Below, one piece after another: positions 3,535 to 58,138 of a DNA stretch of 64,000 bases (positions within the stretch are counted from its first letter, which is position 1; every line of letters begins with the position of its first letter). Origin of the DNA: a virus (Duplodnaviria; Caudoviricetes); IMG/VR virus record IMGVR_UViG_3300032373_000006, positions 3,739 through 67,738 of that record; one strand, given 5' to 3'. A program made the position numbers and the translations under genes. The notes beneath the pieces are model-generated. The model ran no database searches, was not told the DNA's origin, and saw only the letters and a list, made by a program, of their open reading frames with translations.

Positions 3535-3563
3535 ACCATATAGGCAGGGCTGGCAAAAGACAA
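3535..3563 (-). promoter_or_regulatory. sigma70-like promoter TTGTCT-N17-TATGGT upstream of the glycosyltransferase
   Basis: Matches the phage-wide consensus with exact 17-bp spacing. Confidence 0.6.
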
Positions 3564-3764
3564 CTATCGTTTTATCTTGTCAGTAAAAATAGTTGCCAAC
3601 ATAATGATCGGGATGAAACCAGCAAAAACAAAACCGAAGAAACAAACCATCAGACTGATCCGTGGCTTTTTCTTCAGCTTTACCTCACGAGAGTACCATT
3701 CAAGGAACATCATGAACCAAGCGAGCCAATAAAGTAGAACCCAGAATGCCCAACTAGGGAGCAT
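3564..3764 (-). CDS. Small membrane protein (66 aa, two hydrophobic segments)
   Basis: MLPSWAFWVLLYWLAWFMM...; the longer ORF-track version is a shadow of 3754..4662. Confidence 0.55.
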   Translation of the reverse strand: MLPSWAFWVLLYWLAWFMMFLEWYSREVKLKKKPRISLMVCFFGFVFAGFIPIIMLATIFTDKIKR

Positions 3765-4662
3765 GATACTTACTCCTCGGCTTTCCCTGCCCAAGACGAA
3801 CACGCTCGTACTTGTCGAACTCACAGAGACCGAACTGGATATCGGTAGGCGACAGGTGGAATTCGTGCCCAAACAAGAGCTCATGAATCTGGTACAGAGT
3901 TGAGATGATCTCAGTCGCTTGGTCATTCTTGAGAGGCTTGGCTGTCTCGTCACCAGACACCCTCGCAGCGCCACGCAAAGCTCCCGGACCGATAGGTGTC
4001 CAGATCTCCCAGTCGGCTGGGAACGTGAATGCATCTTCGTTGGGTTGCTCAGAGTAGTTTCGCCAGAAGCCTGTGTAGGTCGTGTCAAGAAGGACTTCCT
4101 TGGTCATGAACCCAGTGCCACCAAAGCCTTTGATGTTCTTCATCATGTATTGAGAAGTTTCAAACCACGATTGTGAGGTCTGAGAAATTCTCACGACTTC
4201 GGGAATATGCTTCTGTAGACCCTTGAGGAAGTGATCGACCACCACTTCTTGCTTCGGAGCAGAGATACCTTGGTTCGTAATGACGTAGGCTCCCGTGAAT
4301 ACCCTTTCCCTGTTAAAGAGTCTGTCGGCGGCTGTATCTTTGACGAACTCCCAGTGGTCTTCATCCATGTCTCCGAAGTTTGTCCACCCAATAGCATCGG
4401 CGAACTCGTATGTACCAAAGTAGCGATACGTGGCGCAGTTCATCAGGATACTGCGACGGTCGTCGTTGAAGTGTTCTTTGTAGAACATCTCTCGCAGACG
4501 TGTGCTGGTCTTATCGTGATGACGACGAACGTTGGTGAATTTATAAGTCCGAAGAATCTCGTCCTCGGTCCACGGAAAGAAATCGCCCGCCTCCTTCCGG
4601 AGACGGACGTTCTCGCGTTCTGTCAGATAGTCGAAGAACGCATTGGCACAAGCGAGCGACAT
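3754..4662 (-). CDS. aGPT-Pplase1 / 5-hmdU DNA kinase helical-domain family protein
   Basis: Signature ER..R..G..PWTEDEILRTYKFTNVRR.HDKT and HhH-like GFGGTGFM...; located in the T-modification cluster. Confidence 0.75.
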   Translation of the reverse strand: MSLACANAFFDYLTERENVRLRKEAGDFFPWTEDEILRTYKFTNVRRHHDKTSTRLREMFYKEHFNDDRRSILMNCATYRYFGTYEFADAIGWTNFGDMDEDHWEFVKDTAADRLFNRERVFTGAYVITNQGISAPKQEVVVDHFLKGLQKHIPEVVRISQTSQSWFETSQYMMKNIKGFGGTGFMTKEVLLDTTYTGFWRNYSEQPNEDAFTFPADWEIWTPIGPGALRGAARVSGDETAKPLKNDQATEIISTLYQIHELLFGHEFHLSPTDIQFGLCEFDKYERVRLGQGKPRSKYHAP

Positions 4663-56570: not shown

Positions 56571-56956
56571 TTCTTGTTCCACACATGCTTGAACCAAGCG
56601 TAGGTCACGGAAGCAACCATAGACTGAATCGTGTAGGCCTCAAATTCAATTGAAGGAAATTCTTCTCCGATGCGAGCTCGAACTTCTTGCCAGACGTGTA
56701 TACATTCGTGAGCAATTACACCCAACATGGAGTGAAGTTTGTGGTCTCCTGGAGGAGCAATGACGATGATACAAATAGGATCACCGTTCTTGGGATTTTT
56801 GTAGATGCAGCACTTTCCGGCTGAATCTTCAATCGGATAAGGTTCATCGCTCAAACCAAGTTTATCAAGCAAACGATGCCAGCTTTTCTCACTCGGGGTG
56901 TAATAGGCTGTGATGGGGTATGGACCAATGTCCAGAGGGTAATGCCATTTCGTCAT
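56567..56956 (-). CDS. HExxH-motif protein (putative Zn metallopeptidase fold)
   Basis: IAHECIHVWQ...EFEAY. Confidence 0.65.
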   Translation of the reverse strand: MTKWHYPLDIGPYPITAYYTPSEKSWHRLLDKLGLSDEPYPIEDSAGKCCIYKNPKNGDPICIIVIAPPGDHKLHSMLGVIAHECIHVWQEVRARIGEEFPSIEFEAYTIQSMVASVTYAWFKHVWNKK

Positions 56957-56974
56957 AATTCTACCTTATAAGGT

Positions 56975-57006
56975 GGGGCCGATGCGACTACCTGCGCACC
57001 GACCCC
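56975..57006 (-). terminator. GC-rich hairpin ending the ncRNA region
   Basis: GGGGTCGGTGCG-N8-CGCATCGGCCCC. Confidence 0.55.
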
Positions 57007-57062
57007 TATTGCTTGACTTAAAAGGTCAACCCAGTTGCGACTGGATGCACCCGAGACTATCT

Positions 57063-57190
57063 GACCCATTGCAATTCTTTTACTCTCAAAGCATACGCTC
57101 TTCCACTGAGCTACTCGGCCATAATGGTGTATGGTAGCCGAGACTGGATTCGAACCAGCGACCTTATGTTGTGGAGAATTGCTTGGTCTC
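57063..57190 (-). ncRNA. Circularly permuted tRNA-like RNA (YrlA/Y-RNA-like tRNA mimic)
   Basis: Order is variable loop AGGTC, T arm GCTGG-TTCGAAT-CCAGT, acceptor 3' strand CTCGGCT-A-CCA, 11-nt linker, acceptor 5' strand GGCCGAG, D arm GCTC-AGTGGAA-GAGC; closed by TATG/CATA and GCAATTCT/AGAATTGC. Confidence 0.85.
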
Positions 57191-57221
57191 CTGTCTTTTC
57201 GTTTCTCACACTAAGGGGCAT

Positions 57222-57301
57222 AAGTCTCTTAAGTATGAGTCACAGGGTTTGGTTCCTTCTTGAAGTTTTCCACCTGCTTTGGTAAGTCTTAGTCTCAGTC
57301 T
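57222..57301 (-). repeat. AGACT(G/A/T) hexamer repeats between the gene and the tRNA mimic
   Basis: AGACTG-AGACTA-AGACTT tandem at 57301-57284; further AGACTT at 57227-57222. Confidence 0.8.
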
Positions 57302-57319
57302 ATCCCCTATGGGATTCGT

Positions 57320-58063
57320 TTAGCTAAGGATATATCCGAAGATCTCCTTCGCAATGCTCATATCTTTGACATCCACCGTGTTCGCCCGCTGGCGGGCCTT
57401 TTTCACAGCCGAGATCATCTTGTCACACTTGATCAACATGGCCGACTTCTCGTGTGGCGTGATCATGCTTGACGTATGGGTTGTTTCGATGCGGGCAACC
57501 GGAGTGTCCTCGTTCCATTTCTCCACCTGCGCCGGATGCTCTTTGGTTGGCTCCACCAAGATACGCGACTTGAGGACCTTCTCGGTCTTCATCGCCACCG
57601 TTGGGTCCGAACGATAAACACCATCGCCCAAGGTTGGATCAGGGCTCCATTTGATGGACATCTCCAGTGTTGGGATGCTCAGGATCAATTGACGCACGGC
57701 CTTGAGGCGCGTCTCCATGCCCAGCAGGAAGGTCGCTGGCACATCTTTCATGATGGTCGTGCCATCAATGACGAGGTCTGCCTTGGCGCGACCATTGGCT
57801 TCTTCAAGCTGCAAGAGCGCGTCGTAGTGGCGACCAACTGATTTGAAAGCGTGTTCCAGCTTGTCGGCGACAGTTGAGACCATCTGCTTCTCTTCGACAG
57901 TATTTTCGCCTTCGCGTGAGCTCTCAAAGAAAGCAACTGTCTTGCTGTGGCCGCGGAAATGATCTGCCTTCTTTACGAAAACAATCTCAGTTTCCTTGGT
58001 GATCGCGGCTGCGGAGTTTGTGGTATCCGCCATAACCGCCAAGAGTTCATGAAGTTTTGCCAT
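57320..58063 (-). CDS. Conserved uncharacterised protein (DUF7873-like, from recall)
   Basis: MAKLHELLAV...RAKADLVIDG...DVPATFLLGME...PTKEHPAQVEKW..D...AVKKARQRAN; promoter TAGTCT-N17-TACTAT at 58098-58126. Confidence 0.8.
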   Translation of the reverse strand: MAKLHELLAVMADTTNSAAAITKETEIVFVKKADHFRGHSKTVAFFESSREGENTVEEKQMVSTVADKLEHAFKSVGRHYDALLQLEEANGRAKADLVIDGTTIMKDVPATFLLGMETRLKAVRQLILSIPTLEMSIKWSPDPTLGDGVYRSDPTVAMKTEKVLKSRILVEPTKEHPAQVEKWNEDTPVARIETTHTSSMITPHEKSAMLIKCDKMISAVKKARQRANTVDVKDMSIAKEIFGYILS

Positions 58064-58138
58064 ATTGGTTTCCTAAGTTGGTTTATTCTGATACACTATA
58101 GTACGCCGCGAGGTAATAAAAGACTAGCGGTATTTGTC

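What the first reader, a model, noticed from the sequence alone, without database searches (positions are those of the whole stretch)
56975..58126. Circularly permuted tRNA mimic downstream of a conserved unknown protein and AGACT repeats: candidate RNP system without Ro60
Seen: promoter (58098-58126), a 247-aa ORF, tandem AGACTG/AGACTA/AGACTT repeats, then an RNA with canonical tRNA parts in permuted order. First come variable loop AGGTC, T arm (GCTGG-TTCGAAT-CCAGT) and acceptor 3' strand with A73-CCA (57142-57132). An 11-nt linker follows that holds a second ACCA. Then come the acceptor 5' strand GGCCGAG (57120) and the D arm. All 7 acceptor pairs form. The anticodon arm is replaced by a long closing stem (TATG/CATA; GCAATTCT/AGAATTGC; GACC/GGTC), followed by three hairpins. 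Established: bacterial YrlA Y RNAs have this T-before-D, loop-closed acceptor layout and are usually encoded beside a Ro60/Rsr (TROVE) gene. No TROVE gene is in this window. Inference: the 247-aa protein (DUF7873-like, from recall) and this RNA may form a Ro60-independent RNP, or the RNA may be a decoy for anticodon nucleases or other tRNA-sensing defences. RNase P cleavage at G1 plus 3' trimming could also yield a two-piece, chargeable tRNA-like RNA.
Basis: partly seen in the sequence, partly recalled or inferred. Interest (0 to 1): 0.88.

Follow-up and report, generated by a model that had tools for sequence, protein, structure and literature searches.

The report
Phage tRNA-mimic RNA beside DUF7873 gene
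A bacterial virus encodes, right after an unstudied protein gene (DUF7873), a folded RNA of about 350 bases whose core is a back-to-front tRNA look-alike. This gene-RNA pair recurs in nearly every relative checked and, in this phage, without the Ro60 protein that normally partners such RNAs, so it probably marks an RNA-protein system that I could not find described in print.

Summary
On the minus strand, 57319-56971, directly after a 247-aa DUF7873 gene, lies a structured RNA. Its core (57168-57092) is a circularly permuted tRNA mimic: T arm, a 7-bp acceptor stem carrying A73-CCA, then the D arm.

- **Family match:** Rfam's YrlA model hits it at 36.8 bits, below the cut-off of 69. ARAGORN finds no tRNA or tmRNA.
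- **No Ro60:** the 67.7-kb phage record (CheckV 100%) has no TROVE/Ro60, RtcB, CCA-adding enzyme or RNA ligase.
- **Gene-RNA link:** my covariance model finds the same module just downstream of DUF7873 in 76 of 79 viral contigs, 10 of 11 cultured phages and 9 of 10 MAG loci, with heavy covariation.
- **Processing signals:** N73-CCA follows the acceptor 3' strand in 49 of 60 distinct lineages. U is the commonest base before G+1 (31 of 60, with UAU in 22). Both point to RNase P and 3' processing into a two-piece RNA.
the AGACU repeats are a local form of period-6 NAGNNU repeats enclosed by a long-range helix. The "three hairpins" are a truncated second tRNA-like head plus a terminator-like hairpin.
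- **Protein:** DUF7873 has no recognisable fold and is predicted to form a symmetric homodimer.

Binding, transcription and processing remain untested. This scan has met the same DUF7873-RNA pair on other DNA many times. I found no paper on it.

The parts
57320..58063 (-). DUF7873 protein gene (247 aa)
   Evidence: Pfam PF25283, E 1e-70, full length. 1317 homologues. AF2 model pLDDT 89.9. No convincing fold match. Homodimer predicted with score 0.70 against best control 0.00.
56971..57319 (-). whole structured non-coding RNA, from just after the stop codon to the end of the terminal hairpin
   Evidence: Conserved in L001-L007. Structure counts on A1: 91.4% paired and 29 pairs changed on both sides. 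MFE z -3.6.
57304..57308 (-). P1 5' strand (AGGGG). It can alternatively form a local hairpin UCCC-AUA-GGGA (57314-57303).
   Evidence: Pairs with CCCCU 57218-57214. 100% paired in 6 relatives, 2 pairs changed on both sides. The same register with unrelated helix sequences appears in many distant loci.
57285..57302 (-). three tandem hexamers UAGACU GAGACU AAGACU (local form of NAGNNU repeats)
   Evidence: Tandem period-6 xAGxxU runs at the same place in 14 of 19 loci tested; shuffles give a mean of 0.2-0.6. Further single copies lie at 57228-57223, 57213-57208 and 57059-57054.
57201..57220 (-). P1 3' strand (CCCCU 57218-57214) followed by the conserved motif UAGUGUGAGAAAC
   Evidence: The motif UUGNNCCCUCAGNNUNAGAC recurs about 54-62 nt before the T arm in distant loci.
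57165..57188 (-). 5' strands of the closing helices: GACC 57188-57185, GCAAUUCU 57182-57175, CAUA 57168-57165
   Evidence: They pair with 57066-57063, 57078-57071 and 57095-57092. The 8-bp and 4-bp helices are 94-95% paired with changes on both sides.
57143..57159 (-). T arm (GCUGG UUCGAAU CCAGU)
   Evidence: 98.9% paired over 38 sequences. G53, T54, T55, C56, A58 and C61 are invariant.
57132..57142 (-). acceptor 3' strand CUCGGCU, discriminator A, CCA
   Evidence: CCA at these positions in 49 of 60 distinct relatives, although the acceptor sequences are unrelated.
57121..57131 (-). 11-nt spacer UACACCAUUAU, ending in UAU before G+1
   Evidence: Spacers are 3-76 nt and many are A/U-rich. The -1 base is U in 31 of 60 and UAU precedes G+1 in 22 of 60.
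57097..57120 (-). acceptor 5' strand GGCCGAG, U8-A9, D arm (GCUC AGUGGAA GAGC)
   Evidence: D stem 99.3% paired. U8, A14, G18 and G19 are invariant.
57063..57095 (-). 3' strands of the closing helices (UAUG, AGAAUUGC, GGUC), with a 12-nt internal loop between UAUG and AGAAUUGC
57014..57051 (-). truncated second tRNA-like head: D-arm-like hairpin 57044-57031 and anticodon-arm-like hairpin 57028-57014 (loop CUUUUAA)
   Evidence: Alignment A4 shows that the window, L023, L024 and L026 lack the variable loop, T arm and acceptor 3' strand that L025, L029 and L030 keep. The hairpins are 92-100% paired.
56975..57006 (-). terminal 12-bp hairpin with loop CAGGUAGU
   Evidence: 88% paired. The same position and an AGGRUA-type loop occur in distant loci; a U-run follows in AT-rich lineages.

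Best explanation
The locus encodes a two-part system: the protein DUF7873 and, directly after its stop codon on the same strand, a structured RNA of about 350 nt.

The RNA has four parts. (1) A 5' domain in which a long-range helix encloses period-6 NAGNNU repeats. (2) A circularly permuted tRNA mimic of the YrlA type that keeps every universal tRNA elbow nucleotide and carries an encoded N73-CCA. (3) A second, here truncated, tRNA-like head. (4) A terminal hairpin.

Most likely mechanism (inferred): the RNA is co-transcribed with the gene. Host RNase P cuts before G+1 and 3' trimming stops at CCA, leaving two pieces held together by the acceptor and closing helices. A DUF7873 homodimer binds this RNA, possibly on the repeats or the heads. 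The particle then presents tRNA-shaped surfaces to host tRNA-handling or tRNA-attacking factors during infection, independently of any phage Ro60.

Shown here: the structure, its conservation, the gene-RNA linkage, and the absence of Ro60 in this phage. Inferred: transcription, processing, protein binding and biological role.
For: - **Structure.** YrlA model 36.8 bits, E 1.9e-6. Core helices are 99-100% paired with 20 of 21 pairs changed on both sides; covariation 0.73 against 0.20 shuffled and at most 0.18 slid. The full-length structure is supported in 6 distinct relatives.
- **Linkage.** Model R1 scores 48 bits or more just downstream of DUF7873 in 76 of 79 evaluable viral loci, in 10 of 11 cultured-phage loci from Rhizobium, Vibrio, Klebsiella, Ralstonia, Arthrobacter, Rhodococcus, Gordonia and Pseudanabaena phages, and in 9 of 10 MAG loci.
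- **Reverse test.** None of 56 evaluable tandem-tRNA matches has DUF7873 upstream, against 8 of 15 acceptor-complementary matches.
- **Processing signals.** CCA in 49 of 60 and U at -1 in 31 of 60. M. smegmatis YrlA, which also has a 7-bp acceptor stem, is cut by RNase P and receives CCA in vivo (PMC4201824).
- **No other partner in the phage.** No TROVE, RtcB, PolyA_pol or RNA ligase in the complete phage record.
- **Dimer.** Predicted with score 0.70, best control 0.00, runs agreeing in at least 97% of contacts, partner pLDDT 89; the mark was reached by 20 of 30 proteins solved as pairs and 1 of 23 solved as single chains. A dimer fits a two-headed RNA.
Against:
- DUF7873 has no recognisable RNA-binding fold or family label.
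- Gene adjacency alone does not prove binding.
- Near-complete phage records carry high-scoring modules (66-69 bits) with neither DUF7873 nor TROVE, so the module can work without DUF7873.
- In this window's close relatives (L001-L005) the CCA is paired in a small hairpin that extends the acceptor stem. In the window itself that pairing would compete with the first two acceptor pairs. Either way it could hinder 3' trimming.
- A host Ro60 cannot be excluded because the host is unknown.
Confidence: 0.5

Rival explanations
1. Ordinary Y RNA. The RNA is a divergent YrlA that works with a Ro60/Rsr protein supplied by the host, or by an unrecognisably divergent phage gene. DUF7873 is then only a neighbour.
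For: The best Rfam match is YrlA. A phage Ro60 locus with three tandem modules of the same kind was recovered by the same pattern scan, and its first module also has NCCA (L113).
Against: The score is half of Rfam's gathering threshold (36.8 against 69). The complete phage record has no TROVE match, and the ten ORFs of 410-645 aa scanned show no TROVE or Ro60-type vWA domain. The Ro-binding motif GNCGAAN0-1G is absent here and in 58 of 62 relatives, although the Ro60-linked control locus also lacked the strict motif. The linkage follows DUF7873, not Ro60.
Confidence: 0.12
2. Processing punctuation only. The tRNA-like modules are cis-acting RNase P / RNase Z signals that cut the DUF7873 mRNA away from downstream tRNAs and genes, in the manner of tRNA punctuation or mascRNA. 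On this view the RNA has no function of its own.
For: There are conserved CCA and U(-1) signals. The locus sits in or beside tRNA clusters in many phages. No separate promoter was found between the gene and the RNA.
Against: A plain tRNA would do this job. Instead the permuted order, the closing helices, the P1 helix, the period-6 repeats and the loop of the terminal hairpin are all conserved across phages of several bacterial phyla. A permuted module keeps the two cleavage products base-paired, which is the opposite of separating them.
Confidence: 0.13
3. Decoder-related RNA: a two-piece (permuted) tmRNA, or a permuted tRNA gene that matures into a working tRNA.
For: It has a permuted gene order with an encoded CCA and a spacer, as in two-piece tmRNA genes (PMC11915505). 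Weak partial beta_tmRNA hits occur in two relatives (24-25 bits).
Against: ARAGORN finds no tRNA or tmRNA, and no tmRNA model hits the window. Pair 3-70 is C-G, not G.U. A full D arm is present, which tmRNA lacks. There is no tag frame. The anticodon arm is replaced by a long irregular helix with no 7-nt loop.
Confidence: 0.03
4. Chance junction of two decayed tandem tRNA genes, that is, not a real feature.
For: Tandem tRNA junctions do score 20-40 bits with model R1.
Against: The acceptor halves are 7/7 complementary in more than 60 lineages with unrelated sequences. The window scores 92 bits. No anticodon arms flank it. Its position relative to DUF7873 is fixed.
Confidence: 0.01

Closest known systems
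YrlA (Y RNA-like A, Rfam RF02553), the tRNA-mimicking Y RNA bound by bacterial and phage Ro60/Rsr (Chen et al. 2014, PMC4201824; Wang et al. 2018, 10.1101/312249)
   Same: The order is T arm, then acceptor, then D arm. The anticodon arm is replaced by a long helix formed by the RNA's flanks. The universal tRNA elbow nucleotides are kept. As in M. smegmatis YrlA, there is a 7-bp acceptor stem compatible with RNase P cleavage and a CCA end.
   Different: It scores below Rfam's threshold. The phage has no Ro60 gene and the RNA has no GNCGAA Ro-binding motif. It is linked to DUF7873 instead. It has an extra 5' domain with NAGNNU repeats, a second tRNA-like head and a conserved terminal hairpin. 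CCA is encoded in the gene.
Two-piece (circularly permuted) tmRNA of Alpha-/Betaproteobacteria and Cyanobacteria (Rfam RF01849-51, RF04321)
   Same: A permuted gene in which the CCA-ended 3' acceptor piece precedes the 5' acceptor piece, separated by a spacer that tRNA-processing enzymes remove. The two mature pieces are held together by base pairing.
   Different: No G3.U70 alanine identity pair, a full D arm, no tag reading frame or pseudoknots, and no SmpB context.
TRAP-type periodic triplet recognition (B. subtilis trp RNA-binding attenuation protein binding spaced GAG/UAG triplets). Cited from my own knowledge and used only as an analogy.
   Same: Tandem NAG triplets at a fixed short period, which would suit one protein subunit per repeat.
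   Different: Period 6, not 5. Only 3-5 tandem copies. DUF7873 shows no likeness to TRAP. Binding is not shown.
Phage Ro60-like gp130 of Bas63, reported to counter the Ppl defence system (preprint 10.1101/2024.10.10.617714)
   Same: A phage protein encoded beside tRNA-like genes and proposed to work with tRNA-shaped RNAs in counter-defence.
   Different: That protein is Ro60-like and DUF7873 is not. No defence link has been tested for DUF7873.

Membership tests
YrlA (RF02553) | Permuted tRNA-like domain (T arm, closed acceptor stem, D arm) with conserved tRNA tertiary nucleotides | tested here: met
   U8, A14, G18, G19, G53, T54, T55, C56, A58 and C61 are invariant in 38 sequences.
YrlA (RF02553) | Score at or above Rfam's gathering threshold (69 bits) | tested here: not met
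   36.8 bits in the window. 31-40 bits in relatives.
YrlA (RF02553) | Encoded next to a Ro60/Rsr (TROVE) gene | tested here: not met
   No TROVE match in the 67.7-kb record, CheckV 100%. The ten ORFs of 410-645 aa scanned carry no TROVE or Ro60-type vWA domain. The control locus L113 does ring.
YrlA (RF02553) | Ro60-binding helix with the GNCGAAN0-1G motif | tested here: not met
   Absent from the 363-nt RNA and present in only 4 of 62 relatives. Caveat: the Ro60-linked control L113 also lacks the strict motif.
YrlA (RF02553) | Physical association with Ro60; tRNA-type modifications | not testable with these tools
   Needs immunoprecipitation and modification mapping.
Two-piece (permuted) tmRNA | Alanine identity pair G3.U70 and a reduced D arm | tested here: not met
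   Pair 3-70 is C-G and a full 4-bp D stem is present.
Two-piece (permuted) tmRNA | Tag reading frame; detection by ARAGORN or the Rfam tmRNA models | tested here: not met
Canonical tRNA | Anticodon arm with a 7-nt loop, in the standard order | tested here: not met
   ARAGORN finds none. The closing helix replaces the anticodon arm.
DUF7873-linked tRNA-mimic RNA (seen repeatedly by this scan; no paper found) | Lies directly downstream of a PF25283 gene on the same strand | tested here: met
   The RNA starts within about 10 nt of the stop codon.
DUF7873-linked tRNA-mimic RNA (seen repeatedly by this scan; no paper found) | Permuted head with N73-CCA and a spacer | tested here: met
DUF7873-linked tRNA-mimic RNA (seen repeatedly by this scan; no paper found) | A second tRNA-like head (permuted or in standard order) | tested here: inconclusive
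   Only D-arm-like and anticodon-arm-like hairpins remain. The T arm and acceptor 3' strand are deleted relative to L025, L029 and L030.
DUF7873-linked tRNA-mimic RNA (seen repeatedly by this scan; no paper found) | 5' helix enclosing period-6 repeats; terminal hairpin with an AGGRUA-type loop | tested here: met

The most novel reading that the evidence does not exclude
The transcript is cut by host RNase P and trimmed to CCA. This gives a two-piece, chargeable tRNA-like particle held by a DUF7873 dimer. The particle would act as a decoy, sensor or sponge for host factors that attack or handle the tRNA acceptor end or elbow. That would make it a Ro60-independent, phage-borne counterpart of Y-RNA particles, with a role in the conflict over tRNAs.
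Probability: 0.15. Interest if true: 0.9.

Novelty: new variant of a known kind. Interest (0 to 1): 0.66.

Why it matters
tRNA-shaped Y RNAs are known only as partners of Ro60. Here the same kind of mimic is tied to a different, unstudied protein family (at least 1317 members), in phages of several bacterial phyla and often inside their tRNA gene clusters.

If the pair is a particle, it would be a second class of tRNA-mimic RNP. It would also give a handle on how phages manipulate or protect the tRNA pool.

There is a practical point too. The tRNA-like heads are sometimes annotated as real tRNAs, including a suppressor tRNA, which can mislead predictions of codon usage and stop-codon reassignment in phage genomes.

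Tried and rejected
- **Rfam at gathering thresholds:** nothing in the window. ARAGORN: nothing.
- **blastn against cultured phages:** no match for the locus.
- **Structure of DUF7873:**
  - Profile search of the PDB sequences found nothing.
  - Foldseek against the PDB gave no match at E <= 0.001; the weak rows were FliF, Cascade Cas7-type and Pur-alpha.
  - VIA-align wide gave a best Z of 8.7 with rmsd 8.4 to an unknown-function protein, which is within noise.
  - BFVD gave nothing usable.
  - The ESM Atlas gave no lead.
  - NCBIfam, PADLOC and PHROGs gave no family.
- **Burroughs & Aravind 2016 (PMC5062991):** It is not held in the library and I could not read it.
- **Sigma-70 scan:**
- **Generic helix-score test for P1:** it did not separate signal from controls (16.5 against 14.6-15.1). 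Support for P1 rests on the register and flanking motifs and.
- **Idea that the AGACU repeats pair with the T-arm/acceptor junction or the terminal loop:** rejected, because the complementarity is not kept in relatives.
- **Idea of a permuted group I intron-exon tRNA:** rejected, because the flanks form one long helix and not an intron core.
Full report
**What is there.** The window is most of a 67.7-kb IMG/VR phage record that CheckV rates as complete. On the minus strand, a 247-aa ORF (57320-58063) matches Pfam DUF7873 over its full length, E 1e-70. Non-coding sequence begins directly after its stop codon and runs to the next ORF (start codon at 56956).
- variable loop, T arm (57159-57143) and acceptor 3' strand with A73-CCA (57142-57132);
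- an 11-nt spacer with a second ACCA;
- acceptor 5' strand from 57120, giving seven pairs including G1.U72;
- D arm (57111-57097);
- closing helices CAUA/UAUG, GCAAUUCU/AGAAUUGC and GACC/GGUC.

ARAGORN calls no tRNA or tmRNA, and no Rfam family passes its threshold. In a sensitive scan the only meaningful hit is YrlA at 57067-57183, with 36.8 bits against a cut-off of 69 and E 1.9e-6.

**Is the structure real?** Seven related viral contigs keep the element, with compensatory changes in the acceptor and closing helices. I mapped the full window structure onto that alignment. Over 6 distinct sequences, 91.4% of cells pair, against 79.4% after shuffling and at most 49% when partners are slid. 29 pairs change on both sides.

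For the tRNA-like core I aligned 38 diverse sequences. The T stem is 98.9% paired and the D stem 99.3%. 20 of 21 pairs change on both sides, and the covariation score is 0.73 against 0.20 shuffled. Acceptor pairing in that set was a selection criterion, so I do not count it as evidence. U8, A14, G18, G19, G53, T54, T55, C56, A58 and C61 are invariant, so the tRNA elbow is preserved.

**Linkage to DUF7873.** The protein family is large, with 1317 hits.
- **Cultured phages.** tblastn finds the protein in 75 cultured phage records, from Rhizobium, Vibrio, Klebsiella and Serratia jumbo phages, Ralstonia phiRSL1, Gordonia, Arthrobacter, Rhodococcus and two cyanophages. In the eleven loci I fetched, an unannotated gap of 250-530 nt follows the gene. 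Several of these loci sit inside the phage's tRNA cluster.
- **Covariance model.** Model R1, built on the core, scores 92.3 bits on the window. It scores 48 bits or more just downstream of the gene in 76 of 79 evaluable viral loci and in 10 of 11 cultured phages. The exception, the Microcoleus phage, has a HEARO element at that spot. In MAG contigs from a separate collection, 9 of 10 loci have the module downstream.
- **Reverse test.** A DNA pattern for T arm, CCA, spacer and D arm pulled 81 matches from viral contigs. 65 were ordinary tandem tRNAs, and none of the 56 evaluable ones had DUF7873 upstream. Of 16 with complementary acceptor halves, 8 had DUF7873 128-256 nt upstream. One lay beside a true Ro60 gene with TROVE and vWA_Ro60 domains. 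Several lay in tRNA clusters of large phages whose near-complete records have neither DUF7873 nor TROVE (the positive control for the DUF7873 search is).

So DUF7873 almost always brings the RNA with it, but the module also exists without DUF7873.

**No Ro60 here.** The record has no TROVE, RtcB, CCA-adding enzyme or RNA ligase. The ten ORFs of 410-645 aa that I scanned are ribonucleotide reductase, helicases and a tail-tube protein, or have no significant family; none carries a TROVE or Ro60-type vWA domain. The Ro-binding motif GNCGAAN0-1G is absent from the RNA and from 58 of 62 relatives, although my Ro60-linked control also lacked the strict motif.

1. **Processing signals.** After the acceptor 3' strand, N73-CCA is present in 49 of 60 distinct lineages, although their acceptor sequences are unrelated. 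Many spacers are A/U-rich. The base before G+1 is U in 31 of 60, and UAU precedes G+1 in 22 of 60. These are the signals of a tRNA 3' end followed by an RNase P site. M. smegmatis YrlA, the one Y RNA with a 7-bp acceptor stem, is cut by RNase P and gains CCA in vivo (PMC4201824). Processing into two base-paired pieces is therefore plausible but unproven. In this window's close relatives (L001-L005) the CCA can also pair with a downstream UGG in a small hairpin that extends the acceptor stem. In the window itself that pairing would compete with the first two acceptor pairs. Either way it might slow trimming.
2. **The AGACU repeats.** They are the local form of tandem period-6 repeats of the type NAGNNU (CAGCGU, CAGCUU or CAGUUU in other lineages). 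Such repeats occur at the same place in 14 of 19 loci tested, far above shuffles. They are enclosed by a long-range helix, AGGGG 57308-57304 with CCCCU 57218-57214. The sequence of that helix differs completely between lineages while its register and flanking motifs are kept.
3. **The three hairpins.** The first two are the D-arm-like and anticodon-arm-like parts of a second tRNA-like head. Relatives L025, L029 and L030 keep a full standard-order tRNA shape there. The window and its closest relatives have lost the T arm and the acceptor 3' strand. In about 26 of 60 loci ARAGORN calls this second head a tRNA. The anticodons change between close relatives and include types not expected in bacterial decoders: UUA (stop), AUA, AUG and AUU, and Ser or Leu anticodons on short tRNAs without a long variable arm. 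Most of these are probably structural heads and not decoders. Actinophage, phiRSL1 and cyanophage versions carry two permuted heads.
4. **The terminal hairpin.** The third hairpin (57006-56975) is conserved in position. Its loop is of the AGGRUA type, and a U-run follows it in AT-rich lineages.

**The protein.** AlphaFold gives a confident model (pLDDT 89.9, pTM 0.64) of long helices packed on a beta sheet. Neither sequence profiles nor three structure searches give a convincing relative. A two-copy prediction passed its controls. The score was 0.70 against a best control of 0.00. The runs agreed in at least 97% of contacts and the partner pLDDT was 89. The mark was reached by 20 of 30 proteins solved as pairs and by 1 of 23 solved as single chains. 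This supports a symmetric dimer but does not show one. A dimer would fit an RNA with two tRNA-shaped heads; that link is my inference.

**Interpretation.** The best reading is a Ro60-independent RNA-protein system built on a YrlA-type tRNA mimic, probably processed by host tRNA enzymes. Its role is unknown. Its placement in tRNA clusters, and a preprint reporting that a phage Ro60-like protein counters a defence system (10.1101/2024.10.10.617714), make a role in conflicts over tRNAs a reasonable guess. The rivals are a host-Ro60 Y RNA, a mere processing signal, a tmRNA or tRNA, and a chance junction. I weigh each of these in the rival explanations above.

**Prior knowledge.** A full-text search finds no paper that mentions DUF7873, and no paper describes this pairing. 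This scan has noted the same DUF7873-RNA pair on other DNA many times: 280 notes in at least 166 genomes. One of those notes was later checked, and the check put the chance that protein and RNA bind at low odds. My linkage counts are my own and independent of those notes. What sets this window apart is a single permuted head together with a truncated second head.

Noticed in passing
L011:3518-3673 (Klebsiella phage vB_KpM_FBKp24, MW394391.1): The annotated 'tRNA-Sup-TTA' shares its T arm and CCA-ended acceptor strand with a permuted tRNA-like head (R1 70 bits at 3548-3673). The suppressor-tRNA annotation may therefore be an artefact of this RNA. Likewise, 'tRNA-Ile(tat)' in Rhizobium phage RHph_Y1_11 (L008:3691-3766) sits at the second-head position of the RNA, directly before its terminal hairpin.
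   Followed up: partly
L017:2866-3075 (Microcoleus phage My-WqHQDG): A HEARO RNA (129 bits, IS200/605-type element) sits exactly where the DUF7873-linked RNA would have its D arm. It appears to interrupt the RNA.
   Followed up: no
L152:2958-3395 (-), 283-kb viral contig: A GOLLD RNA (195 bits) lies about 700 nt from a permuted tRNA-like module (R1 66 bits at 4077-4178) in a tRNA cluster. The record has neither DUF7873 nor TROVE.
   Followed up: partly
L113:5580-5960 (-) and L113:3745-5472 (-): A canonical phage Ro60 gene (TROVE plus vWA_Ro60) is preceded by three tandem YrlA-like modules. The first has an encoded NCCA and a spacer ending in UAUG; the other two are closed by UUCG tetraloops. 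Even these score only 34 bits with Rfam's YrlA model.
   Followed up: partly
window:55859-55959 (-): Weak R1 hit (17.4 bits) over the phage's other atypical tRNA-like gene, about 1 kb downstream. This short stretch of the phage therefore holds both of its tRNA-shaped RNAs.
   Followed up: no
window:56954-56994 (-): Weak likeness (15 bits, E 7.9) of the terminal-hairpin loop plus the Shine-Dalgarno region of the next gene to Rfam's DUF2815 RNA motif, another phage motif. Probably chance.
   Followed up: no
L018:1-375 (Gordonia phage Phendrix): A phage-borne tmRNA (57.6 bits, cut off at the locus end) lies in the same tRNA cluster as the DUF7873-RNA pair.
   Followed up: no
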